Shown: piece by piece, positions 1-64,000 of the stretch
Layout: the number at the start of each line of letters is the position of its first letter
Numbering within the stretch: the first letter of the stretch is position 1
DNA from: Lingula anatina
Taxonomy: Eukaryota > Animalia > Brachiopoda
DNA: 64,000 nt
Assembly (NCBI GenBank): GCA_051362555.1
Contig: JBPQGU010000016.1
Location: 2,046,001-2,110,000, forward strand
Reading direction: 5' to 3'
Notes under the pieces: model-generated
What the model was told of the DNA's origin: nothing
The model's input: the letters and a program-made list of their open reading frames with translations, nothing else
Databases searched by the model: none
Translations under genes and position numbers: made by a program

Positions 1-1468
1 TATCATTTTGAACCTTTAGCAGGGCTGTTTCAGTACTATGACCCGTTCTGTAGGCTGATTGGAATTTACCATACAGAGAATGTGCTGTTAAGTAGTTGTT
101 CAGTTGCGAGAATGCCATTTTTTCCAGAAATTTACTAATGAAAGAGCAGTTGGAAATTGGTCTATAGTTTTTCAGCTCGTTTCTTTCAAGACTGCTCTTC
201 TTTAAGAGAGGCTTAACAACAGCAGTTTTACAGAGATCAGGAAAAATTCCAGACTCAAAAGATGTATTTGTTATTTTCATGAGTGCTGGAGATACTGCTT
301 CTATGCAATCCTTTACTAAGTATGTTGGTATTGGGTCCAGTGAGTAGGATTTTGCTGGCATGGCTTTCATCATGGCAACTACTTGTTCGATACTCACTTG
401 GGTGAATTTTGTCAGTACTGTTTGAGAAGAAACTGGTGACTCTATGAGCTTTGGATCATGTTTATCTAGGGTACATCTTATGTCCTGTATCTTTTTAGTA
501 AAGAATTGTGCAAAAACTTGAGGTAGTAAGTTTTTCTCTAAATCAGGCAGTACTCTAAGTTGGGTGGATGAAGAGTTAGAGATGTTATCAACAATTCTGA
601 ATAGGGCTTTCTGATCGGCAGAATCAATACAATTTCGGTGGTATTCTGCTTTGCATGTGTTAAGACGAAAATTATACTTGGATCTGGCATCTGTGAAAAT
701 CTGTTTATGTATTTCAAGTCTAGTGCCAAGCCATTTTCTTTCCAGCTTACGGATTTCCTTACGCTCTTCTAACAACTCTGGTGTGATCCATGTAGCCTTT
801 GGCTTTACTGTCACTCTCTTTTCCTGTAGTGGAGCCTGGTTATCAATGGCCTTTGATAACGAATTATTGTAGTGAGTAACTTGTAAATTTATGTCAGATA
901 TGCTGACCATCTGACTTAAAGCATTTGAAAGATCCCTGTTTAAGATGTCACTGTCAATTCTGGAAAGTAGCCGGCTCTGTTTGACTACTTTAGTTGGCGC
1001 TGGGCGGTTGGCATTGGCTACGAAATGAACTGCTGCATGATCAGAGGGCAAAGTGTGATCTACGAAGAAGTTACTGAGACATGAGTTTTTTCTTGTCAAA
1101 ACAAGATCTAAAACATAACCTTTCGAATGAGTAAAACTTTCAACATGCTGTTCAAGTCCCACTGAGGATAACAGATCATTGAATTTTTCCACGTCACTAC
1201 ATTCGTTGTCATCCACATGGATGTTGAAGTCCCCTGCAATTACTAAGTGACCAGATGAAACAATAGCTGTCTCCAAAAGTACAGAAAATTCATCAATGAA
1301 ATAAGGAATTGTATACTTGTGTTTTGCTGAGTACGGTGGCCTATATATTACAAATAGACGCAACAGTTTCTTTCTAATTTGCACCGTTAGGTCCATTATC
1401 TCAAACGAATTGAATGAATGATTTATGTTTTTTGCAACTTTCATGTTATTTCGCACAACTACAGCAAT
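1..1468 (-). mobile_element. L2/CR1-clade LINE ORF2 fragment (APE endonuclease plus start of RT), degenerate
   Basis: Minus-strand motifs IYRPP, GDFNIH, THSKGYVLDLVLT, SDHAAV, KTAVVKPLLKK, NYRPIS and HSTETAL. Confidence 0.85.
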
Positions 1469-2016
1469 TATTATATTTTGTAAATTTTCTGAATTTATGA
1501 AAGCAAAGTATACCGACATTTAAATACAAGAAAACAGGTGAAAAATAATTTTCAGAGTCAGTCAAAATTGTTACGTTTTCATTAAAAATTTGGAAAAAAA
1601 GAATTATCACAGAAATTAAAGCATTCTATGAAAGAGGACATTGACGTGAAATAGTTTGGCTATGTTACCGCGAAATGTGAGCAGTTGACACATCCAGTAA
1701 AAGGACATATTTTAAATAACATTGATAAATTCTTACATAAATAACGTACTCTAACTTAAAAGAAAATGCTCCTAATTCTTTTTTAAATCTGGTGCTCTGA
1801 ATTAATGTTTACCACAAAATATCAATGACAGCAAACAAGATCTAGACATAACGTGTATGTAACCTTTTGTAACAAATCTGCCTCCAAAGATTAAATAAAT
1901 ATGCACACTAAAAACTATTCACTTATATAATCTATATTATGACGAGGCTTCTTGTCCGACTTCATAACATGAAAATATATAATAAAAAGTGAATTCATTT
2001 CCAAGGTAGCTAGTGT

Positions 2017-26359: not shown

Positions 26360-26777
26360 GAGCTACACATGAATTGACATACAGTGTGCAGTCGGTAGTC
26401 ATTCCATACTAATTTTTTATTTTTTAGGTCATGCCAAAAGAGGGTTAAAAGAGCCTTTATCAAACCTGTTGTAATATAAAACACCATCTTTCATGGACAG
26501 CAAATTGAAGTTTGTCCATACAAATTTCACAGCTGTCGAGCATAGATGCAACCCCTCTTGAGAAGGACTTACATTTTCCTCAATCCAACCTATCACCTTT
26601 AATAAGTGAGGATCTTTTAATTGCGCTTCTCTGAGTTGACTTACTGTATACTTGGCAAACAATTCAACATTCCCAGTATTTTCCTTGTGTGGGTTTACGA
26701 CAGATGTAACAGTTTTCACGCTTCTTAGAGACAGGTGCCCTGTGTAATCGACATCTTTGTTAAATCTGTCCCACTCT

Positions 26778-28394
26778 TCATGAAGCCTGGTACAGTGGTG
26801 GCAGCCTCCACAAGGTAATTGTCACACCACAACCAGCTTCATAGTAATAACAGTCCTTGTGCTGAAGAGGAATGCCTGACAACGAATCAGCATTACTGTG
26901 TTTTTTACTCGATCTGTGCTGAATTTCTAAATCACACTGGGCCAATTCCTCCATCCACCTTGCTAAAACACCATTTAGCAATTTAAAACGCATGATCCAG
27001 TACTGTACTGCCGTACTGCCGAGTAAATCGGACTACTGCTAAAAGCTCCTTTTTAGTCGTGCAATAACGTTGACTAGGAGTGAGAGCAAAACTACCATAA
27101 CTAATGACCTTTTCAGCGTCATTTTGCATCTGTATGAGCTCAGCGCCAATACAAGTATCACTGGCGTCCGTGTCTAAAATAATTAAACAATCACTGTCTG
27201 GAAAACATAGCACGGGACTATGGACCAAAGCCTGTTTCAAGTCATTGAATGCAACTTCGTGTTCATGAGTCCAATTAAAAACACGTTTGTTTTTGGTCAA
27301 ATCATTAAGTATATCAGCAAAACATTTTATGTGACTTCTATGGTAATTAACTAGACCAAGGAATCTTTCCACGTCTTTCTTACATTTCGGACGTGGCCAA
27401 CGTTGAACTGCTTTCACACTGTCAGGGTTCGGAGCTATGCCACTCTCATCTACCAATTTACCCAAATAGAGAACACTCCTTTTGAGTAATGAACACTTGG
27501 ATGGTTTTAATTTCAATCGATTTTCTTTGAATCTATCCAACACCAGTGCAATATTGGCTATAGAATCATCAAAACTGTTCCCAAGCACAACAGCATCGTC
27601 CAAGTAAGCGATCACTTGTCTCCACGTCAAACCACGCAGAACGGAATTGACTGCTCGCATGAAAGTAGAAGGGATGTTAGTCAAACCAAACGGTAGTCGT
27701 TTAAACTCAAACAAACCGTACTTGGTCATAAAAGCGGTTTTAGGCCGGGAGCTTTCCTCAACTCCAACCTGATAATAAGCACAGATGATATCAAGAGTGC
27801 TGAAATACTGAGTGCCCGCTAAAACATCTAAGGATTCGTCTATCTGTGTAGTGGATACACATCCTTGACGGCCACTTTATTCAAAGCATGAAAATCTATG
27901 CAAAATCTCAAAGTGCCGTATTTCTTTCTCACTAAAACAGGAAGGGATGGCCATTCAAAACGAGAGGGTTGCACAATATCAGCGGCTAACATTTTATCTA
28001 ATGTAGCCTTTTCCTCTTGTTCAAAACCCAGAGGTGTACGTCTCAGTCTTTGTTTAATAGGCTTTGCTTCGTTGATATCAGTTATATGTTTAATCTTGGT
28101 AAAATGACTGATATCAAATTCAGATTTCAAAAAAACATTGGTATATTTTATCAAACGATTGCCTAATTTGAGAGACTGCTCAGTGAACAGATTCTCACTA
28201 GATCGTTTCCACAAATCAATCACGTGTTCAGGAATATTATTATCCACATCGTTAGAGTTCACATCAAGAGTGTTCACATCGATTTTTCCGAAACATTTCA
28301 TAAGGGTATCTACAACACTGTACAGGTGCATCCTTTCGTTAGGTGATAGTTTTACAAACTCGTCAAGGGCTTTACCTTCTAGTGAATTGATCAT
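26778..28394 (-). pseudogene. Gypsy gag remnant plus pol RT/RNase H, frameshifted
   Basis: PIKQRLRR, LRFCIDF, LPFGLTN, YLDD, LDTDAS, YCTTKKELLAVV and HSNADSLS. No protease motif is visible; gag joins directly to the pre-RT linker. Confidence 0.88.
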
Positions 28395-29141
28395 AATTTC
28401 GTAGATTTCTTTGACTCCCCATCCCTTGCTCTCGGCAATGCAACATAATTTTAAGTAATATGAATGAAGTTAGTGCTTCCATCATAGGATTGGAAAAGGG
28501 TGGACGGCTGGGGGCAGAAAATGTGTGACTCATTATAAATGGGGGATGACCTACCTGTTGGAGGTGGTTGCCGGTTTTTCGTCACTATACAGGGGAGTGT
28601 CCACTGGCCTTGACCTTTGCGTGGGGGTGAATCTGGGTACATCCTCAGAGAATTGTCGATGTGGCCCGCTCGGATCAGAATTCTGACACCCATAACGGTA
28701 CGCTGTCACGTTTGGGTCAGTGACAACTGGCTGCCCAGGTCTGGTACAAAATCAGGACTTGAACTTATTCGCTCAGTTAAACCATAAGATGAAGACTCCG
28801 TTGAAGTATCAGAGACAGGATGAGCATCGGCATCATGAGGATAATTTATCTCAATGTGTCCTTGCTGAGCATGAGTCAAGGGTGAAGCTAAATCTTCCAA
28901 ATAGGGATGGATTGTCACGTCTCATATATGAGATAAATTCTGTTTGAAATTTCTGCAATCCTTCTGTCATTTTATTAACATTTTCACACAGTCCTTCAAA
29001 TGTTGAGTTCAAGTGTCCAATTTCGTTTTCCATTCGTGTAATCCGTGTTTCCTCACAACTACTGTCAATTTCTTTTGAGCATAAAGGCTCCACCTTGTTG
29101 AAAATCGTAAAATAATAATTATTCAACGTGATAAAATGTGA

Positions 29142-37056: not shown

Positions 37057-37227
37057 CAAGCGTGAGTGTGGAACAGAGTAACAAACACGGCGTGCGACGT
37101 AAGCGTCGTCACGCCGTGTACGTAAAACGGCTATTAAAAGCATTTTCAAATAAACATCCTGACGATCGGCATACCCAGAAGGTATGCCCGTGAAACTCGG
37201 AGTCGGGGTTATTGCATATCTCTTGTT
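37055..37227. mobile_element. Short hairpin-rich element embedded in (TA)n
   Basis: aacaag...cttgtt ends, flanked on both sides by long (TA)n, with two internal GC-rich hairpins. Confidence 0.5.
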
Positions 37228-37255
37228 TATTTATTAATTTTAATTATATATATAG

Positions 37256-37336
<81 letters not shown>

Positions 37337-37355
37337 CGGAATAGGGGAACATTAC

Positions 37356-37944
37356 CGTTTCAGCATCGGGAACTTTATACGGCACCGTTTCAACAGATTT
37401 TATCAGCTCTATCAACTCTTCTTGTTTCGTATCTCGGTCTTCCCGGTCACTGTTTTCTACACACCATATTCGTTCGCCACATTCGTAATAAAGATTCAGA
37501 AATGGTTCTGGCGAATCGGTGATATATTCTCCGATGGAAGTGTATTCATGTTTTATGACATCAGCAAATGTAAACACAATGATACTTTTCTTAGGGAAAT
37601 TGTCTCCGAAAATCCCCCGTAACTGGTTTACTGCTTCTATTTGAGTATTTTTAATTCGGCCCATTTTAAACACAATCAATATAGAGTCCACTTGCTTCAG
37701 AGATCCAGCTTCCTTGTATATTCTGCGCAATATCTTATTGTCACTTTTGGACAGCGAGCCTAAACCAGGTGTGTCCATAAGATGGACAGTGCAAGAGCAA
37801 GGTTCGTTGAGCCTGAATTTCGTGTGTGCAATTTTGCCATCTTTTCCATTATACTCACGGTCATCGGATAGTTTCTGTACAGTTGCAGATTTCCCTTGCC
37901 CCTTATAGCCAACGACTATTACGTTGTAGGTTTTAGTGGTCGCC
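37356..37944 (-). CDS. GIMAP/AIG1-family GTPase, main coding exon
   Basis: Extending ORF 37227..37778 upstream gives YNVIVVGYKGQGKSAT (G1), HLMDTPG (G3), VDSILIVFKMGR (conserved box with Arg), SIIVFTFAD (G4) and ECGERIWCVEN. Acceptor tttttcag| at 37945 and donor acg|gtaatg at 37355. The IYIY tail in the ORF track is an intronic (TA)n repeat. Confidence 0.9.
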
Positions 37945-38035
37945 CTGAAAAATGATTACACCATGAATTATGAAAAACTGAACTATAAAAAAGCAGTAAA
38001 GAAAGTCAGAAAAATAAAATGAAAACCTTACTTAC

Positions 38036-38232: not shown

Positions 38233-41200
38233 GCAATATATATAATCAAGAATTCTAAAACACACCACATTAATGATATTTAGACTAATGGTAAGGTATA
38301 AAGTATAGATGCAGTAATGACTATAGCCTTTTCTTGATAAATCGGCTTTAACGCTTTATTAATTTAACAGTTAAACTGAAACTATATTTATCCGTTTCTT
38401 TAGCCTCAAACAGAGTCTCCGTGCAACTTACTGTTTAATACCTACGTTTCATAAATGATTCACCATTACACGTGAATATTTACTTACATTGCTGTTCCTA
38501 TTCGGAGAGAACGGATGATCTAGCGAATGGCTATAAAAATCAAACTGCGCATGCACTGATAATTCGCGGGACCTTCACAAAGGCGCATAATTTGACAATT
38601 GCAAGGGGAAATTGTAAACATGCATTATTTCATTATTTTGTTAATTACTTGCTGCTGGCACCTTCTTTTGATCTTCTTCTCTTTATATTGTATAGTTGCT
38701 ATGTCCAAGTTGTTACTCGTACATGTATATGTATAAAACACGATGACTTCATTCAAGTTCAAACTGACATGAAACAAGGGGCAAACAGAGCGCTTCTTTT
38801 TCCCTTTTGCTTTAGGCAGCAAAATATTATAGTTGCAATGAGACGCTCCATGAGCTTTTGACCTCATAACAGCGTCACTGAGCTCCTGACCTCATATATA
38901 CGCCCACATAAGCGTGCACAGCACAGCCTCAAATGCTGCCAGGAAGGAAGTCTGCGTTACGTGTACCGAACACATACTGAGCTCATTAACTATGTTCTGA
39001 TAGTTCAAACAAGGTAAAGATTTAATATGCTCAAGTGAAATAGTTACATTACACTCATCAGGGTTAATTTGTTATCAACAGATTTTGGAAGAAAGGGTAG
39101 GTGAGCTTGAATCCGAGCCACCCACACTGGATCAAATGCCACGCTGACTTGCAAATCGGAGATGGATACAGCGTTAATAACGTAAAAAAAACACATAATT
39201 GAAGGCACAGAAGAAAATAATTTGGATTTTTCTAGACATCACCTCGCCATTTAGCCGGACACTTAACCGGTCGCGATTCTCAGTCCAGCGGCAGCGAGGG
39301 TTTTTTGAGGCTCAAGGCAAATTTTAATATACCTGGCAAATACGTAAGAAACAAGGCGGAGGCAAGAGCAAATGCTAGTTGAAAAGGAAATAGGGTGAAC
39401 ACAACAGAAGGTGACGTCACTACACTGCGCCCGTCTATTCGTCTGCAAACCGTGAGTTTTTATTTTCCTTTTATTTAATTAATTGGATGATATGTTTGTC
39501 TACTCGCCCCTTTATTTATTTTTATTAATTGACTGGTTAACTGATATAATTTTTATGCCAGAAAATACCAGCTCTGAAAAGGATAACCATCAAGGCTTTG
39601 TTAGCTGCATGCGTGCCTTCAACTTATGCTCGATGTACCCTGTCTGCTCCCATACCCTCTCCCAAAGTTATAACCTAGCTGACAGAATAAACTAAATATC
39701 CATCTTTATGACCTTGTGATACAGTTACATTTTGTTTATGTACTTTCTTAATATGTGTTACCATTGTGCCAACCAAAACCCAACACCTAGTACATCCAGT
39801 GTTTAAATTTTGTCCAATTGTATTGATGACTAAGTTGTCAGTGCTTTACAAAAGAACCAATGATTTTTGACAAAATATAATTTCGTAAACATTATTTTTT
39901 TTTTATGTAAGTTGCCTACTTCACTTCAATTTTTCTCGCCAGCTCAAAGATTTCTCTGATATTTGAGCGGATTTAAAAGAAATGTAGTGTTTTATGTCCC
40001 CGTGAATTACACAGCGCCTGCACGGGGGAACCGATATGGCAAGAGGAGGGCGAGCCAAAGACGTCCATTCGTGTCCCTTTCGACCGACAAGCATCGCGTT
40101 TAAGTGTTCAACGTTACTTGAAAATTAATTAAAACGCAAATTAATCTAGACTTCAGATTTAGTAAGACAAAGAAATATATTATTAGAACTTAATTAAATC
40201 CCATTTAAGATGTGCGTAAAATCTGAGTAATTGCAGTTGGTATTTTCAACTTATACTATAAAAGCCGCTAAATGCCATTTATTGTATTTTATTGTCAAGT
40301 TATTGTTTAAATATATATATTTTAGATATATTATGTAAGACGCTATGAGAGTCCAATGGAGTGTACATGTACCTGAAGAAGAGGGGGAGGAAAAGAGAGG
40401 GAAAATTAAAATAAATAGCAAGTTACAGCTAGCGAGAAGATGGCAGGGAGGAAAATTTGAAAAAAATTCAAATCCATTAACTCCCTCCATAAGCACACAC
40501 ACTGAACTTTTATTCGTGTACATAATCTCTTAAGAATGGTTAAATCGCATTATTCATCTCTGATCATTTATATGCCATTAGCTGAAACGAATATAAATTT
40601 CTGGCCCAGGCTTTTCCCAGTGAATCATAGCTCACAATGCATGCAGGTACTGGACACCTGACAAAATTTGTTGAGAAAACACAGAGGAAAACGCCGCAAT
40701 TTTTATTTTCAATTCTGTTACATGAATTTTTTTTTTTTTTTTTTTGAAGTATTAATAAAAAAGAAAATATAGTAATTGGACAGTGCATATTACTAGAATC
40801 GTTAATGCAGAAACGTGAAAGTGATACAAAGCAGATAAATACTGAAATTTATTGAAAGATCCATAGATTAAAGGCACTTCCATCTCATAAGGATTACAGA
40901 AAGCCAGTCTTCTTGTTTATCAAAGACACTGTTTATCAAAGACATTACTTACTATACTATATATAGTATTAATTATTCTCTGGACCTACTAGTAAGTAAT
41001 AAGCCAGTTGTAAAAAATAAAGAAGTATTGGCTTTTCTTTTTTGGAAAACACTAAATAATTACCTTCTGCATGCATTGTAAAACTGGTAAATATTCAAGA
41101 CATTTAGTCCATTTTTGCTATAGTTTCAACAGGGCTAGGTATGTTGCAAACATTTACAAAAACTGAAACAGCACCATTGAGCATTGGTCGGTAACGTCCC

Positions 41201-44120: not shown

Positions 44121-44249
44121 TTTAGGGTTCTAGGACTTTCCGTACTAAAATAGAGTGTCTAGGGGAACTCTACATTACAGAACATAGAGTCCGGGACCCG
44201 TTATTTCGAGACAGGGTGTCCGCCGGACTCTCAGATTTGAAAACACCGC

Positions 44250-44690
44250 CGGACCCTAGAATGGTAGGACTCTGTGTTGCTTGACACCGGAGTTAGAGAT
44301 ATGGGTCTAATGTCTGTCTCTATGGTCTTTGGAGGAATACACTTAGGTTGTGGTGACACATATGCATGTTTCCAGCGTGGTGGGACATATCTTTCACGAA
44401 CTGAAGAGTTGAATATATCACATACAGGGGCAGCTAGGTACCCTGCTAGGTCATGTAGGATCCAGTTGGGAATTTCGTCGGGACCTGTGGACTGTGTACA
44501 TTTACTTGGAGCAAGGTCTTTCGACATCTTGTTTTGTGATGATATATGTGGCTGGTACAGGATCTGCTGCTTCCACATGTTTCGGTTCAAGGGGCACAAA
44601 GTAATTTTGACAGATTGTAATAAAGCGTTTATTTTCTGGGCTAATAAGCTGAAATCAACATATTGCACTCACTGACGTTTCAAATTTAAG
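44250..44690 (-). mobile_element. LINE RT N-terminal fragment (L2/CR1 group)
   Basis: STGPDEIPNWILH...IFNSS...VPPRWKHAYVSP.PK...DIRPISLTP. Confidence 0.8.
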
Positions 44691-46109: not shown

Positions 46110-48240
46110 TATTTTTAGGCTTTCATCGTATGCTGGTTATTTTGGTAACAATAGTCCGAATATTTAACAATTCGCACCGCTCTAATTGCTGACTAACCCC
46201 CAAGCCCAATAGGAGTTAACCGCTAAATGTAGTTCAAACAGCGTAGGTAGTGTTTTGGTTATTTATAAGAAGGGTTTTCTAAACATTATATCATGTTTTT
46301 CCAGAATGTTATAAAACGCTGATAAAACTCCACAAAATAACGTTATCATAAAGTTTTGTAGATACTGTCTTCGAATCTTTCTACAAAACGTTCTGATGTT
46401 ACTATAATGTTTTTTGTTAGCTGTGACAACACTTTGCATAGAGTGAAAAGCCAAGTGCTTAGCCAAGTTGCTTAGCCTTGTGATAGACTTATAACAGAAT
46501 CATATACCGGGGAAGCTAAGCACATAGCTAAACGTTTAACACTGTCAAACGTGTCTAGCATTTTCTTTTGTGAGCAGCTTGAAAAGCTATACGTGTTTAG
46601 CTTTAACACATATTTCTAAATGCGTTTAGGTGCTAAACGTGCGTTTTATGTGTTTAAATACTAAACACTGTTTATACAGTGTAAGTGAGTCGGTCATATA
46701 TTTAGTTTGCGGATCTGTTTGTCCGCGGATCAACTTGTTCTGAATGCGCTCAAAGTCTCTTTTTCAGCGGAATTTTTTTTTATATTGGTTAAATTGATGT
46801 AGTCTGTTAAATTAGGTGTACAAATAATTGAATAAAGAATGACCGAAAAGAAAAAAGGCCAGGAATAAAAATGATAAACAAGGCAGCATGAAAGAAAGAG
46901 TTAATACGGGTAGATATTACTACTACTACTACTACTAAGAATAATAATAACAATGATAATAATGAAAACGATAATAATTATATAAGTAATAATAATCAGA
47001 AGAAGAATTCGTGTAGTATATTTCTATAATTATTATTTATTTTATTATTCAAAATTATATAATAAAAAGATTCTAAAACATACCAATTAAAATGAAAAGT
47101 GAACGATGGTGATTTATTCAGAGAATTGCCAAGACAGACAATGCGGTAATGAACATAGCCAGTATTAGTTATAGAATGCCATAATCTTGATAACCATTGT
47201 CTGAAATCGAGCGCAGTTAACATTAACGTTTTCCTTGAACGGCTGAATCGAAACTACTTATCCTTTTCTTTCGCCTAACACTGACTCCACGCACGTAAGT
47301 ATTTGTAATTACATAGCTATTCCCGTTTGTGAGAGTACCGATGCTCTATCGAAGCCTTCCAACTGGTGATCTGTGCTTTGAAGGGTTGGGGGGGGGCAAA
47401 TGAATGTACAAGCAAGTAACGAACTGGGCATGCTACAGGGGCCTTCAATAGACACATCATTTGACGATTGCAAAAGGAAATCATTATCAGTAACGTTCAG
47501 AACGGCTTGTGCATCTAGCTTTGAAAAGCTTAATTAAACTATTTGATTTAATTAAATTATTAAAATAGAAGACATAAAAAACGATAGTTTAATTTCAGTT
47601 ATTTTATTTCTTATATTTTATTATTTTATTATTTTTCCGCTTTCATTCCCTTCTTTAGACCTTCTAGTCGTTACAGTTGTATTGTCTAAACTGGTTTTAC
47701 TGTATTATATAAACAGATGACAGCATATAGTTTTAAGATAATTTCACATATATTTCATAATCTGTTCACTTTATTGATGGTATATGACTTACGTTTATAC
47801 AGCGTTAGAGAATAGAATCAAGGGGTCCGCTGTCACTTTGCTACATCTCTCATAAGTACAACCTTTCTTCTTTAATTTTGTTTTAGCCAACAAAAAGGCA
47901 TTGTTGCTATGAGACGCTCCCTTAATCCTTGACCTTCCCTGCGTTACGTATAGGAATTTGCTTATCAACAGCACGAAGTAGCACGAGTGCATATACTTGC
48001 ACAGCGTACAACCAGTTCTGCTGTCAGGGTGGAGGTCTTCGTCACCAAATACATATTAAGCTCATAAACTGCACTCTTATAGCCTAAACAAGGTAAACGA
48101 TTTAATTTCTGCAATAAGATCTGTAACTAAGCTCATCAGGGTGTTATCAAAATACATTGGAAGGAAGGACAGAGTAGCATTTTAATCTGTCTGTTTACTA
48201 CAACTCTATCCCCTGGAGATTTTTATTGAAGACAGTATAT

Positions 48241-49469: not shown

Positions 49470-50083
49470 AATAATTTGCCTCAATTTCACATTGTTTATT
49501 ATCAGTATGAAATCCATTCTATGTGTACTCTGCCTTTAACTGTATATATTTTTGAATGAAGGCAGACAAAGTGTATCAATGTCACATCGCTTATTCTCAG
49601 TATGGTTTTCATTTCAGATGTCAAGGCAGGAGGATAACAAGGTAAATACTTTCGTCCTCCATAGCATCTCATTCTTTCTCTTACACACACACACACTCAA
49701 GCACATCGGTAAAGTCAGGTAAATATTATTCCCCTGAGCACAATACCACCTGACTACCCCCAAGGAAAAAAAAACTCTACCTCAGGTAAGAAAACATACT
49801 GTATTCGAAATATCTATTTGTGAATTTTATAAATTACTTGGAAATTTTGCGAAATATCAGATAGAGGGCAGTTGAGATATAAGAAATGGTTATTTTAATA
49901 TAAATTATAACTATAAATATTATAAGATATAATTAAGATTATAAAAATCAGAAAAATCAAATATCAATTTGCAAATTTGACATTGCAGGACGCTTTTGAT
50001 CAAGCAAATACTAAGTTCTAATTGGGATGTGGTCTTGGCCACTTAGGAAGTGGACTAGATTAGTACTGGGCCTGTGACATATA

Positions 50084-58402: not shown

Positions 58403-61400
58403 GTGTGTGTCCACGAGAAAACCAGACCAAATGTAGAAAATGCGGCAAGGCGGGGGTGAACGGATTTACACCATATTTGGTGTGTTTGAACTTTTATATG
58501 AACAATATCTGAGGCTGCAATATTTCCTGAAAAAAATCCCTACCTACAGAGATATGGGCAGTCACAATTTGGGGGGTTAATCAACCAAAAATTCATTTGA
58601 AAAACAGGGTTATATTGATTGGCCTTACAGTTTATACAGGTGTCACTTAATGATTTAGTTTGGTGATATGTTATAACCTAAAGATAGGGGATTAAAATGA
58701 TATACACTTTTTTCACCCTCTTTGTTTCCATGGTAACAAACTAAACGTTTTTCTCAGGGCTACGAACCACATGCTTTGAACACCCCCCTTCTATTTTTGA
58801 CAATATCTTCATCTTCACAGGTCTTTGGGGTAAAGCGTGTTCAGGACTAACAGATAACTCATTAATCTATTTATACATGAAATCAAAACTTACTGCTGTT
58901 CTACAACTTGTCCGTTGTAAGAGATAGAACATGACCTAATTTCTTCATTTTTCGTAAATATATCTGGACACATATATCGGTGCACTCAACTTCAGCTATC
59001 TCTTTCAAGTCAACAAATGGTTTAAAACACTGTCAGTTGAGCTTTATATCTTCATTTTACCTATTCTAATTTTTTTCTGGTTAAAACAAGCATCTAACAC
59101 ATTTTAAAATCATGTGAAACTAATGTACTAACGACAGAACAACACAGCGTGATTATCCAACATGGCGGAAAGCGCAGACTGTTTCTTTGCAAATCTTCCT
59201 CACCGAAGTCGTATATCATGTGGTTTATACTGTGTCTACAGATATGAAAAAACATGTAGTGTATTGAAAAACTGCAACAGAGACATTAACAGTCGTCTTT
59301 GTCGCGTTTACGTGAAGCAAAACAGCGTGAGTTACGAAAGCAAACTGATTCTTGTCAGGTGTGGACTCTTTTGTCTCCGATGACCGCATTTTCAAGTATC
59401 TTTGGGAGAATGAATGGGTTACACCATGTGACCAGCATAGGGATATGGGCTTGGTTTGTGCTGGAAACCATCCACACCGGGAAAAACGAGCCTATAACGA
59501 AATATGTCATGGGATTAACTTGCAGATGTCAGTGTAGACAAAAAGCCATTTGAATATACTGGTGCCACTTGGTTCAGGTAAAATACGGGTTTGTTTGTAT
59601 TTTAATACAGGCTAAAAGCCAGAAAAAAGGTCACTCAGAAAAATGATCTAGGTGCAATTTTTTAATGGTAAACGGTCCATTTTTTTCTTTTTTCTTTTTT
59701 TTTTTTTTTAAAGAAAAATGCCCCCTTTCAAATAATGAAATTTCATGCAGCCTAAGGACCTGTGATAATCCTATCTTTTAAGATTTGTGTAGGTATTTAG
59801 GTTGGTTTAAGGGTATTTGGGTAAAATAAATTTAAGGGTAACAATTGGAATTAGATTGAAGCTAGGGCTGGTCTTGGCAAAATTGCTAGTCTCATCATAA
59901 TTTATATTCGAAACCATGTCTTACTTATAAAACATTGACACATGGGATAATAATTTATTTTTCATCAACGTATCAATTAACTTTGAGATAAGTGTTTTCA
60001 TGTGTCTATAGTAAGCTATATTTATATTTCAGGCACATTTGAGAGGTGTTATTTGACACACAGTGATCTTATGGTCAGCAAAAGAGTCCAAAGCCTTGCA
60101 GAAACTGAAACTAGTGTGGAAATGATGGATGTTGTAGAAAGGCATGTATGTAAATGAAAGCCACAATATAACAAATGCTGAGGAGATGCATGAGTCCTTA
60201 GTTTCTGCAGATGGAGTGGAGGGGTGCTCTTTTGCTGCCATTTTCTACATCCAGCTAGACAGACATTTTCCAAACCTGCGTGGACCGGAGTGTCCAATTA
60301 CAACAATTTGGCTTTCTTGATTCCTACAACATGAGAAAAGGTGTCTCTCTTCCTTGAGCAGTTTTAATATGAGTGATACTGATGTTAAAGTTAATTTGGG
60401 TTTTTCTGTGGCAAATGTACCAACTGGGACTATACCTAGAGAACTCCACCCTCTTGAATATCTCACTGAGTTACACAATGGATGAGCTTTAAAGTCATAT
60501 AAACCTTTGAAACTATATTCAAATAAAGTAAAGGAGTTTTTACTGAAGGAGTTTAGAAGGGCACAAGAAACAGGCCAGCAGAACCTAGCATTTGTGAGCA
60601 TGAAGATGAGATTGAAATGTCAGTAAGGAGGGTTACAGACTATTCAGGAAGAAAAAATCGGCAGTTATTTTTGAATGTATTATAAACTTTGATGTTATGA
60701 GCTGTAATGTTTGATATAAAACTGTTAAGATGTTTCATAACACCAGGATATATTTTGCAGTTGTGTTAGTTTTGCTTTTTGAATAGAAAATTATCTTGTT
60801 TTGCTAGACCTTACATAATGATATAGGTTGTAATGATCACAACTAATGTTGCACTGCTTTGCATGTATTGCTGTATTATAATTTTGTGATTTTTTATTAT
60901 TTGTAATTATTCATCTGAGACAAAAATAAACTAATTTAAATATTTTTTAGTTACTGTTTGCTCATAAAGAGTCACCAAAGAGTGGTGTGGATGATTAAAA
61001 AAAACTTTTGAAAATTAAAAAAAGATTTGTTCTGGCTTCGATCTCATAAATACTATAAGGCATATCCGGATCTCTAAATGATAAATATTGCACCAAAAAG
61101 AAATCTTCACTAAACTAAGATTTTAATTTGTATTCACCAAATTGATGATATATATATAATCATGTAAATTATCAAGTTAATTGCCAGTGCTTATCCAAAG
61201 TAATAGAATCTAAGATTTATTTCCTCTTAACTTTTTGTCCATACAAATGAAAAAGTCCATATATGACAATTTACAAAAATGAAACCCAATGACCTTGACC
61301 TATGACCCACTGACCTGATATTCATTAGAACACATCCACTTTCCATGCTCACCAGCCCTATTAATTTAGTAACAACATTGTAGAGCAAAATGTTTTAATA

Positions 61401-62085: not shown

Positions 62086-62787
62086 GTGAGTCCCTTTAAT
62101 TAATGTATGATATTACTCTTTACCCTTTTTATTTGACACTGTCTGTTTCTCTCCCCTTTTCCTTTCTCTTGTAAGAAGGAGGGCAAATAATTAAGCATTC
62201 AAAATATGCATCACCAATCTTCAGAAAAGAATGAGTGAATGAACCATTGGGCTGGCCCACAACGTCCGACACAGAAGAATAAATTAAATAACAGCTTTCA
62301 CAGATTTAAAACTGCAGTTAGCTGTATAGCGTCACTATATACATACTATATACAACAGCTGTTGAACAAACGGATAGTTCTCTATGGAAGACCTTTTGTT
62401 TACATAAGTACTCTAAGGGGGCTAACCAGGCGACAAGAGGATTAGGCTAGTCACTATATTCCGTCAAATTCGTTTAGCGACCCTATCATTATCACACTCC
62501 CTCTATTGTATTTTCTGACGTTATAATTGTATCTAATCTTCTTACGTTAGATGGAATAAATGCACACGTAATACATAATCTTATGACTGTACTTGTTTGT
62601 AGCTTTAAATTCTTGCTAGGACATTATCTGCATTTTCATATTGAAAAAAAAATATTATTTTAATCATCAGTAAGATTATGTCGGTTATGTCCTGACATTA
62701 GTGAGGACAGTAGTTCCAGACACTGTGTTTTTCCTTGGGTATTAACGAATTGTGAGAGATAAGTAATATTATGGGTATCTACTACAG

Positions 62788-64000
62788 GGCAAAGATGTTT
62801 ACGAAGAAATACCGCCAGCTTATGCAAAGGGGGAGCACACCAACATATTTGTCGTTGGGCAAACAGGAACTGGAAAGAGCTCTACGTGTAATATGATGGT
62901 GGACAAAGAAGGAGCTTTCAAAACAGGATTTTGCCTTAAAGGTGTTACGGACGACGTGTCATCTCACTGTGCCAACTTGGGTGGACGCAAGCTTCGCCTG
63001 ATTGATACTCCCGGTCTTTTAGAAGCAGTTTCGTATAGCCAGTTTGGATTTCTGAAGAAGATCATGACGAAAAACATTAGTTTGCTCGGCGGCGAGGAAG
63101 GTATCGACGCGTTCTTGTTTGTCATTAACTGCAACGATACGCCATCTCAAAATGAATTGAGCGTCTTAGTTAAGTTAATTTCGATGTTTTCGGAAGACAT
63201 TTTTGAATATATGGTTGTTGTGGCTACTCACAAGGACGAACTTGAGATGAGCGAAAGGACAACAGAAAGTTTCAAAAGCAGTCTTCCCGGCAAAATGAAG
63301 ACGATCCTTCAGAAGGCTGGTGGAAGGATAGTGTTTATCAACAGTGTCACCAAAGACGGGAGAGAGCGTAGACACTACGTTAATTCTATCATCCGCCGTG
63401 TTGATGAGATTGCAAGAGCTCATCTAGGTAAGAAATTTTCCAATGAAGCCATCGAAAAAGCACGCAAGAAAAGACAAGAACTAGAAAAAAAATACCCTTA
63501 CCTGAGTGAGACCGGTATACAAGAAGAATTAGAAAAGGTGATCGAGCCATATTTAACATCACAATACTGGTGTTTTGATGGCTCTTCCACTGTGCGTCTT
63601 AGCGATGGGTCAATCACACCAATGGCCAAACTAACATCCGGTGACAGGGTGCTTTGTGTTAGGGATGATGGCTCCGTTGGCTTCGAGGACATCTTCTGCT
63701 TCAGCCATGCAGATGAAAATTGTCAAACTATATATGTCCACCTGCAGACCGCAACCGGGAAACACCTTCTCCTCTCTCACGGTCATTATATCCACGCTCT
63801 CTCAAATTCTACATCATTCCCATTTTCCATTAAAGCTGCCCGTGATATCCGCGTTGGAGATGTGGTGTTCACTTATCACCCTGCCGCCAACGCCATATTT
63901 ATGGATGAAATTGCGGCAACAGGCAGTAAGAAGGTCACCGGTGCCTTTTGTCCTCACACCATGAGCGGCACCATCATCGTCAATGATATTTTGGCGTCCT
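62788..64000 (+). CDS. GIMAP/AIG1-family GTPase fused to a Hedgehog-type Hint domain (partial: 5' exon uncertain, 3' end beyond the window)
   Basis: Frame 1 is open from 62767 to the window end; likely acceptor ctacag|ggc at 62787/62788. Manual translation: NIFVVGQTGTGKSSTCN (G1), KGVT (G2), RLIDTPG (G3), GIDAFLFVI (conserved box), VVVATHKD (G4), GGRIVFINS, FSNEAIEKARKKRQELE (charged helix). Then YW-CFDGSSTVRLSDGSITPMAKLTSGDRVLCV...GKHLLLSHGHYI...AARDIRVGDVV...GAFCPHTMSGTIIVNDILAS, matching the Hint N- and C-terminal blocks of Hedgehog. Confidence 0.93.

What the first reader, a model, noticed from the sequence alone, without database searches (positions are those of the whole stretch)
63565..63790. 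Non-canonical catalytic signature in the Hint domain
Seen: the scissile bond is Trp|Cys-Phe (Gly|Cys-Phe in Hedgehog), block B is S-H-G-H (T-x-x-H in Hedgehog), and FEDIFCFSHAD places His where Hedgehog has the Asp that activates the sterol hydroxyl (alignment by eye). Established: Cys1 and the block-B Thr/His drive the acyl shift, while that Asp is needed for cholesterol transfer. Inference: thioester formation is probably retained but the attacking nucleophile may differ (water, amine, another lipid or a protein), which could allow covalent tagging of targets by the GTPase.
Basis: partly seen in the sequence, partly recalled or inferred. Interest (0 to 1): 0.7.

Follow-up and report, generated by a model that had tools for sequence, protein, structure and literature searches.

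The report
Ordinary GTPase–Hedgehog-type self-cleaving fusion
This is an expressed animal gene for an immunity-type GTPase fused to a Hedgehog-type self-cleaving domain; its 'unusual' catalytic residues are the normal ones for this already published family, and it likely cuts itself free and may attach a sterol-like lipid, so the finding is ordinary.

Summary
The residues are real: Trp|Cys1-Phe, His46 where Hedgehog has Asp46, and Ser69-x-x-His72. The model superposes on Drosophila Hint (TM 0.94), and Asp48 cannot take the catalytic position. They are not non-canonical. His46 occurs in 137 of 150 nearest homologues and in 23 of 23 AIG1–Hint fusions, where Ser69 is 21 of 23 and Gly(-1) only 2 of 23. 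A 2008 published alignment shows His46 in most non-Hedgehog Hog domains, in fungal GmGIN1 and in several true Hedgehogs. Engineered D46H Hedgehog keeps cholesterolysis (review). So His46 does not point to another nucleophile. AIG1–Hint fusions are published from fungus, coral, snail and lancelet, and this scan noted one before in a diatom. The gene is spliced, lacks a signal peptide and runs off the window; contigs continue with Cys143-Tyr. Best reading: a probably cytosolic precursor that self-cleaves at Trp269|Cys270 and is likely capped by a sterol or lipid alcohol (about 0.45); hydrolysis about 0.3; protein tagging under 0.1. The adduct of non-Hedgehog Hog domains remains untested here, and this lineage's pocket is more polar than Hedgehog's.

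The parts
49618..49641 (+). First coding exon (24 nt, MSRQEDNK), AG before, GT after. The exon upstream ends at 48092 and has an in-frame TAA 9 codons before the ATG, so this ATG is the likely start.
   Evidence: Spliced loose ends at 62786 in X1, X2, X3 and X14; exact match found once in the window; splice sites and upstream stop. The donor at 48092 was found by an 8-letter match to the contig letters plus GT.
62788..64000 (+). Large coding exon (AIG1 GTPase, helical linker, Hint); open at the window end
   Evidence: Open frame 62767-63999; CAG acceptor ends at 62787; contig depth begins here
62842..63489 (+). AIG1/GIMAP GTPase domain with G1 GQTGTGKS (62857), G3 DTPG (63004), G4 THKD (63226)
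   Evidence: Pfam PF04548 E 1.6e-38, aa 26-241 of P0001; motif places
63568..63573 (+). Predicted scissile bond Trp269|Cys270 (Hint -1|1)
63571..63999 (+). Hedgehog-type Hint fold, 143 residues inside the window
   Evidence: PF01079 E 1.1e-26; model and fold match
63706..63708 (+). His46, at the general-base position (Asp46/Asp303 in Drosophila Hedgehog)
63775..63786 (+). Block B Ser69-His-Gly-His72
64000..64000 (+). First base of the codon equivalent to Hedgehog Cys143; the rest of it and the sterol/adduct-recognition tail lie beyond the window
   Evidence: The last base is T. Contigs and reads of a near-identical copy and of paralogues go on as Ser-Cys-Tyr-Thr-Asp. Closest relative P0016 has a 66-residue tail.

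Best explanation
The gene encodes an AIG1/GIMAP GTPase fused to a Hedgehog-type Hint domain that carries its family's usual catalytic set, and it is predicted to cut itself at Trp269|Cys270 and likely to cap the freed GTPase with a sterol or similar lipid alcohol. Steps: (1) Cys1 attacks the Trp269 carbonyl, helped by Ser69 and His72 (N-to-S shift; residues shown, activity inferred from Hedgehog). (2) The acyl group likely passes to the Cys143 equivalent (seen in contigs; role known from Hedgehog). (3) His46 acts as general base for a hydroxyl nucleophile presented by the C-terminal amphipathic tail (inferred from D46H Hedgehog and the family-wide helix-1 H-x4-P-x-R motif). (4) The roughly 30 kDa GTPase would gain a C-terminal lipid anchor on a cytosolic membrane face, standing in for the C-terminal membrane anchors of GIMAP1/2/3/5 (inferred). 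That the signature is family-typical is about 0.95 certain; self-cleavage about 0.8; the full mechanism with lipid capture about 0.45.
For: His46 in 137 of 150 best hits, Ser69 in 88, Gly(-1) in only 37, Trp(-1) in 8. Among the 23 AIG1-Hint fusions (23 of 83 hits scanned): Cys1 23, His46 23, Ser69 21, His72 23, Cys143 20, Gly(-1) 2; 19 of 23 have all three 'non-Hedgehog' features. All 23 keep a tail of 48-72 residues with an amphipathic first helix like Hedgehog's; helix-1 His 20, Pro 22, Arg 18 of 23. Published alignment, counted by eye: His in 34 of 37 non-Hedgehog Hog rows, including GmGIN1, and in 6 of 22 Hedgehog rows; the Trichinella and Xiphinema Hedgehog rows also have non-Gly(-1) and Ser69. 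Urechis hedgehog has His46. D303H keeps structure, pKa and catalytic efficiency and accepts more sterols; D46H SHH still autoprocesses in cells. In an intein, bulky -1 residues promote the acyl shift. No signal peptide or membrane helix in the 412 residues seen.
Against: No biochemistry was done, and I found no assay of a natural His46 Hog domain in the papers held. This lineage's predicted sterol pocket is more polar than Hedgehog's: Ser at SHH L242 and His at L348 in the window; Ala at I367, Arg at H374 and Trp at R381 in P0016 (sites from PMC7906309). Across the AIG1 fusions L242 is mostly Ser or Gly (16 of 23) and the HWY hinge is replaced, mostly by a G-M/I-P-type motif. Hedgehog works in the ER lumen, whereas this protein appears cytosolic. 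The effect of T69S or of Trp(-1) on a Hog domain was not found in the papers read; T326A strongly reduces activity. The window's own tail was not seen beyond a few codons. The homologue census is biased towards the query, and the Hedgehog set is mostly fish Ihh.
Confidence: 0.45

Rival explanations
1. Self-cleavage by water: the thioester forms and His46 activates water, releasing an unmodified soluble GTPase. The tail only places the precursor on a membrane.
For: Polar substitutions at Hedgehog's sterol-contact sites and loss of HWY; P0016 lacks the helix-1 His and Arg. Hedgehog domains show background hydrolysis, and Asp46 is thought to restrain it.
Against: The helix-1 motif and a 48-72 residue amphipathic tail are kept across the 23 fusions. 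D46H Hedgehog still uses sterols.
Confidence: 0.3
2. The Hint domain of this copy is inactive or very slow, and the protein works uncut.
For: Trp(-1) is rare (8 of 150) and its effect in Hog domains is untested. This lineage is divergent: 28-38% Hint identity to the other 22 AIG1 fusions. It also lacks the Arg of the R-F/M-T box that most relatives have.
Against: Cys1, His46, Ser69, His72 and Cys143 are all kept here and in P0016, while a quarter of the Hint residues differ between them (76% identity). The fold is intact.
Confidence: 0.17
3. One reading: the thioester is resolved by a protein or amine nucleophile, so the GTPase is covalently attached to a target.
For: Cytosolic location and an immune-type GTPase; polar pocket in this lineage. 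Thioesters react with amines and thiols in vitro (established chemistry).
Against: The residues cited are shared with secreted Hog proteins of algae, nematodes and true Hedgehogs, so they mark no special chemistry. The window protein has no C-terminal His-Asn splicing motif at the end of the Hint fold; it has the Hedgehog-type S-C-Y.
Confidence: 0.07

Closest known systems
AIG1/GIMAP-Hint fusions of animals (Acropora PMC3723955; Biomphalaria PMC7053062; lancelet PMC12373286); closest sequence Lingula anatina XP_013384271 (P0016)
   Same: AIG1 followed by a C-terminal Hint. P0016 is 64% identical over the exon and 76% in Hint, with FW|CF, FGH46, S69EGH and SCY.
   Different: P0016 is annotated with about 370 extra N-terminal residues; the window transcript starts 8 codons before the large exon. 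The catalytic residues of these fusions were not discussed in the passages I read.
GmGIN1 of Glomus mosseae (AIG1-like GTPase + Hog, no signal peptide; Burglin 2008, PMC2362128)
   Same: Same architecture, no signal peptide, His at position 46, Cys143
   Different: GmGIN1 has Gly(-1) and Thr69; it is fungal. A common origin of the two fusions was not tested.
Hedgehog Hog domain (1AT0) and its D46H mutant (6TYY)
   Same: Fold (TM 0.94, Z 25), Cys1, His72, Cys143; His46 as in 6TYY
   Different: No Hedge domain or signal peptide; Trp(-1), Ser69, a more polar sterol pocket; no HWY hinge in relatives

Membership tests
AIG1/GIMAP-Hint (Hog) fusion | AIG1 GTPase domain with intact G1, G3 and G4 | tested here: met
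AIG1/GIMAP-Hint (Hog) fusion | Hedgehog-type Hint domain in the same reading frame and exon, C-terminal to AIG1 | tested here: met
   contigs span both domains
Hog domain (Hint + SRR/ARR) | Hint fold closer to Hedgehog than to inteins | tested here: met
   Z 25.1 (rmsd 1.4, 142 aligned) against 21.1 (rmsd 1.6, 133 aligned) for the best intein
Hog domain (Hint + SRR/ARR) | Cys1, T/S-x-x-H, general base (Asp or His) at 46 | tested here: met
Hog domain (Hint + SRR/ARR) | Motif J with Cys143 (S-C-Y) | tested here: met
   Beyond the window; read from loose ends of contigs, including one with 5 differences in 1062 bases. The exact-match contig's overhang was not printed.
Hog domain (Hint + SRR/ARR) | C-terminal sterol/adduct-recognition helices | tested here: inconclusive
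   Beyond the window; present but divergent in P0016
Hog domain (Hint + SRR/ARR) | Autoprocessing with adduct transfer | not testable with these tools
   needs biochemistry
Hedgehog proper | Signal peptide and Hedge signalling domain | tested here: not met
   The N-terminal domain is AIG1; no hydrophobic leader
Hedgehog proper | Gly(-1), Thr69, usually Asp46 | tested here: not met
   natural exceptions exist among Hedgehogs
Protein-splicing intein | C-terminal His-Asn followed by a Cys/Ser/Thr extein | tested here: not met
   The Hint fold ends in the Hedgehog-type I-L-A-S-C-Y

The most novel reading that the evidence does not exclude
In this lineage the adduct pocket has turned polar (Ser at L242, His at L348; Arg and Trp in place of the helix-1 His and Arg in the closest relative), and the Hint domain ligates the immune GTPase to a non-sterol acceptor such as a membrane lipid head group or a protein of the host or an invader: a self-catalysed conjugation system in animal immunity. 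His46 itself is no evidence for this.
Probability: 0.07. Interest if true: 0.75.

Novelty: new member of a known kind. Interest (0 to 1): 0.15.

Why it matters
As flagged, it matters little: the residues are the family norm and the fusion is in print. The question that remains belongs to the whole family. What do the His46 Hog domains attach? C. elegans Hog tails were named 'adduct recognition regions' because this was unknown. If AIG1-Hog proteins attach a sterol to themselves in the cytosol, that would be a self-made lipid anchor for immune GTPases and would show the likely older, His-based form of Hedgehog chemistry. A family member with an intact helix-1 motif would be a better test case than this divergent copy.

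Tried and rejected
Asp48 as the catalytic base: rejected. Sequencing error or pseudogene: rejected; the frame is open, the gene is spliced, and a second study's contigs match. Single-sequence fold was useless (pLDDT 42) and was replaced by the alignment-based model. Word-index searches missed the family: 13 AIG1-only hits with the whole protein and 1 hit with the Hint region; the full HMMER scan found 2364. No whole genome is held, so the tail past 64000 could not be read directly. The Atlas search gave no answer. No RNA holder was listed by the index. RNA runs X8 and X11 had almost no reads on the exon (about 6% of each read); most X14 reads there are under 95% alike, so probably paralogues. 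Tree: the maximum-likelihood run did not finish. The FastTree run (154 rows, 146 columns) is poorly resolved: the window and P0016 pair (100) inside a group (97) with 19 of 24 AIG1 rows, 5 AIG1 rows lie elsewhere, and Asp46 rows cluster mostly with Hedgehog. It is unrooted, so 'His is ancestral' remains an inference. Literature searches for an assay of an AIG1-Hint or other natural His46 Hog protein listed none; the original GmGIN1, Hoglet, Xie 2016 and Zhao 2019 papers are not held, so such data may exist there.

Full report
Observation. The window ends inside an open frame, 62767-63999 on the + strand, that holds an AIG1 GTPase (Pfam E 1.6e-38) and a Hedgehog-type Hint domain (E 1.1e-26). 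Residues 1-79 align without gaps to Drosophila Hint, putting His46 on Asp46 of 1AT0 and on the engineered His of 6TYY. A model built with 133 sequences (pLDDT 96) matches 6TYY and 1AT0 at TM 0.94, and 142 of 143 residues align to chain 258-399 (Z 25.1, rmsd 1.4 A). Asp48 therefore cannot be the catalytic residue; this is inferred from the ranges, as no residue-level superposition was printed.

The gene. Contigs of runs X1-X3 (labelled 'DNA?', but spliced; X1 may be the source of the window) and reads of RNA run X14 join 62788 to an upstream piece. That piece lies at 49618-49641 between AG and GT. The exon before it ends at 48092 and has an in-frame stop, so the ATG at 49618 is the likely start. 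The protein has no hydrophobic leader or membrane helix in the 412 residues seen. X2 and X3, from a second study, match the exon with 2 differences in 854 bases and 5 in 1062. Loose ends past 63998 read Ser-Cys-Tyr-Thr-Asp, so the Cys143 motif is kept; more distant contigs (about 85-90% alike) show at least one expressed paralogue. The rest of the tail was not seen. The closest named protein is from Lingula anatina (P0016); the window's organism was not determined.

Is the signature unusual? Against Hedgehog, yes. Of 63 full-length Hedgehogs fetched, 62 were aligned (one lacked the junction pattern): Gly(-1) 62, Thr69 62, Asp46 61, His46 1 (Urechis). Against its own family, no. In the best 150 of 2364 hits, His46 is 137, Asp 6; Ser69 88, Thr 57; Gly(-1) 37, Trp 8, gap 7; His72 150. 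Seventy of 150 combine all three non-Hedgehog features, 7 of them with Trp. I scanned 83 of the 150 (mostly the longer ones) with Pfam and 23 carry AIG1; named ones come from a brachiopod, lancelets, a snail, a bivalve and a sea cucumber (10 looked up). In those 23: His46 23, Ser69 21, Gly(-1) 2, Cys143 20. This census is biased towards the query, so I checked an independent source, the alignment in supplement S15 of Burglin 2008 (part 1 of 4, counted by eye, 10 Vint/intein rows left out): His in 34 of 37 non-Hedgehog Hog rows (WRT-1, QUA-1, Hoglet, GmGIN1, red algae, moss) and in 6 of 22 Hedgehog rows (two sea urchins, Capitella, Nematostella, Trichinella, Xiphinema). The two nematode Hedgehog rows also have non-Gly(-1) and Ser69.

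Does His46 change the chemistry? A review reports that Drosophila D303H (D46H) has the same fold, pKa and catalytic efficiency as wild type and accepts coprostanol and epicoprostanol far better. D46H Sonic Hedgehog autoprocesses in 293T cells. Ala at this position loses cholesterolysis but keeps thiolysis. His is thus a working general base for sterols. In an intein, bulky -1 residues promote the acyl shift; this is an analogy, not a Hog test, and Trp was not mentioned in that paper's main text.

Mechanism. Most likely the precursor forms a Trp269-Cys270 thioester, passes it to Cys143 (required in Hedgehog), and His46 activates a hydroxyl nucleophile. All 23 fusions keep a 48-72 residue tail with an amphipathic first helix and mostly the His-Pro-Arg motif that Hedgehog needs, which favours a lipid alcohol. 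A C-terminal lipid would parallel the membrane anchors of GIMAP1, 2, 3 and 5. Against this, sites that matter for cholesterolysis in SHH are polar or altered here (Ser at L242, His at L348; Ala, Arg, Trp at I367, H374, R381 in P0016), and HWY is replaced across the family. I give lipid capture 0.45, hydrolysis 0.3, inactivity 0.17, protein or amine tagging 0.07. None of these steps was tested at the bench.

Prior knowledge. AIG1-Hint fusions are reported in Acropora (supplement S4), Biomphalaria, lancelets and Glomus GmGIN1. My searches listed no assay of such a protein.

What I saw of each paper. PMC3723955: one passage and supplement S4. PMC7053062, PMC12373286, PMC12054796, PMC7906309, PMC13738340, PMC8201404: passages. 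PMC3417536 and PMC9695228: passages, no bearing. PMC9163320: passages and section 9. PMC2362128: passages, section 9, supplement passages and part 1 of S15; eight of its 17 supplements were not searched and may comment on this position. PMC6333167: abstract and passages. Zhao 2019, Xie 2016, Snell 2006 and Requena 2002: nothing but their reference entries.

Verdict. Observation confirmed; its reading as a non-canonical signature is not supported. A new member of a known kind, interest 0.15.

Noticed in passing
window 37227-37955 (-): A second AIG1 GTPase frame (Pfam E 4.5e-26), distant from the fusion (23% to P0016); the frame ends in a TA repeat and no Hint was detected in it.
   Followed up: partly
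window 39107-39451 (+): Degenerate piece with stops and frame shifts, 48% identical to residues 1-113 of P0016. P0016's N-terminal 370 residues have no Pfam hit; the RefSeq model may join a neighbouring gene, or this copy lost the extension.
   Followed up: partly
window 63118-63156 (+): The AIG1 box after G3 lacks the Arg of the R-F/M-T motif found in most fusions; the window and P0016 have D/E-T-P-S instead. That this Arg is the GIMAP arginine finger is recalled, not checked.
   Followed up: partly
P0186 (Urechis hedgehog) and fragments P0036, P0045, P0054, P0107, P0129: Hedgehog-like Hog domains with natural His46 (10 of 14 HWY-type rows): natural counterparts of the engineered D46H mutant.
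   Followed up: partly
P0015, P0018, P0019, P0022, P0026 and relatives: A family of about 20 proteins, probably bacterial by their look (not checked), with an N-terminal leader, a Cys-rich stretch, a His46 Hog-type domain ending S-A-H-S-D-W and a C-terminal membrane helix. Only Hint is found by Pfam.
   Followed up: no
window 59572-60028 and 60438-60662: Reads show a GT..AG joint and transcription inside the long intron of the fusion gene, at 90-99% likeness, probably a repeat or a related locus.
   Followed up: no
window 2-1519 (-), 26429-28469 (-), 44231-44668 (-): Frames that look by eye like non-LTR and LTR retroelement remnants; not scanned.
   Followed up: no
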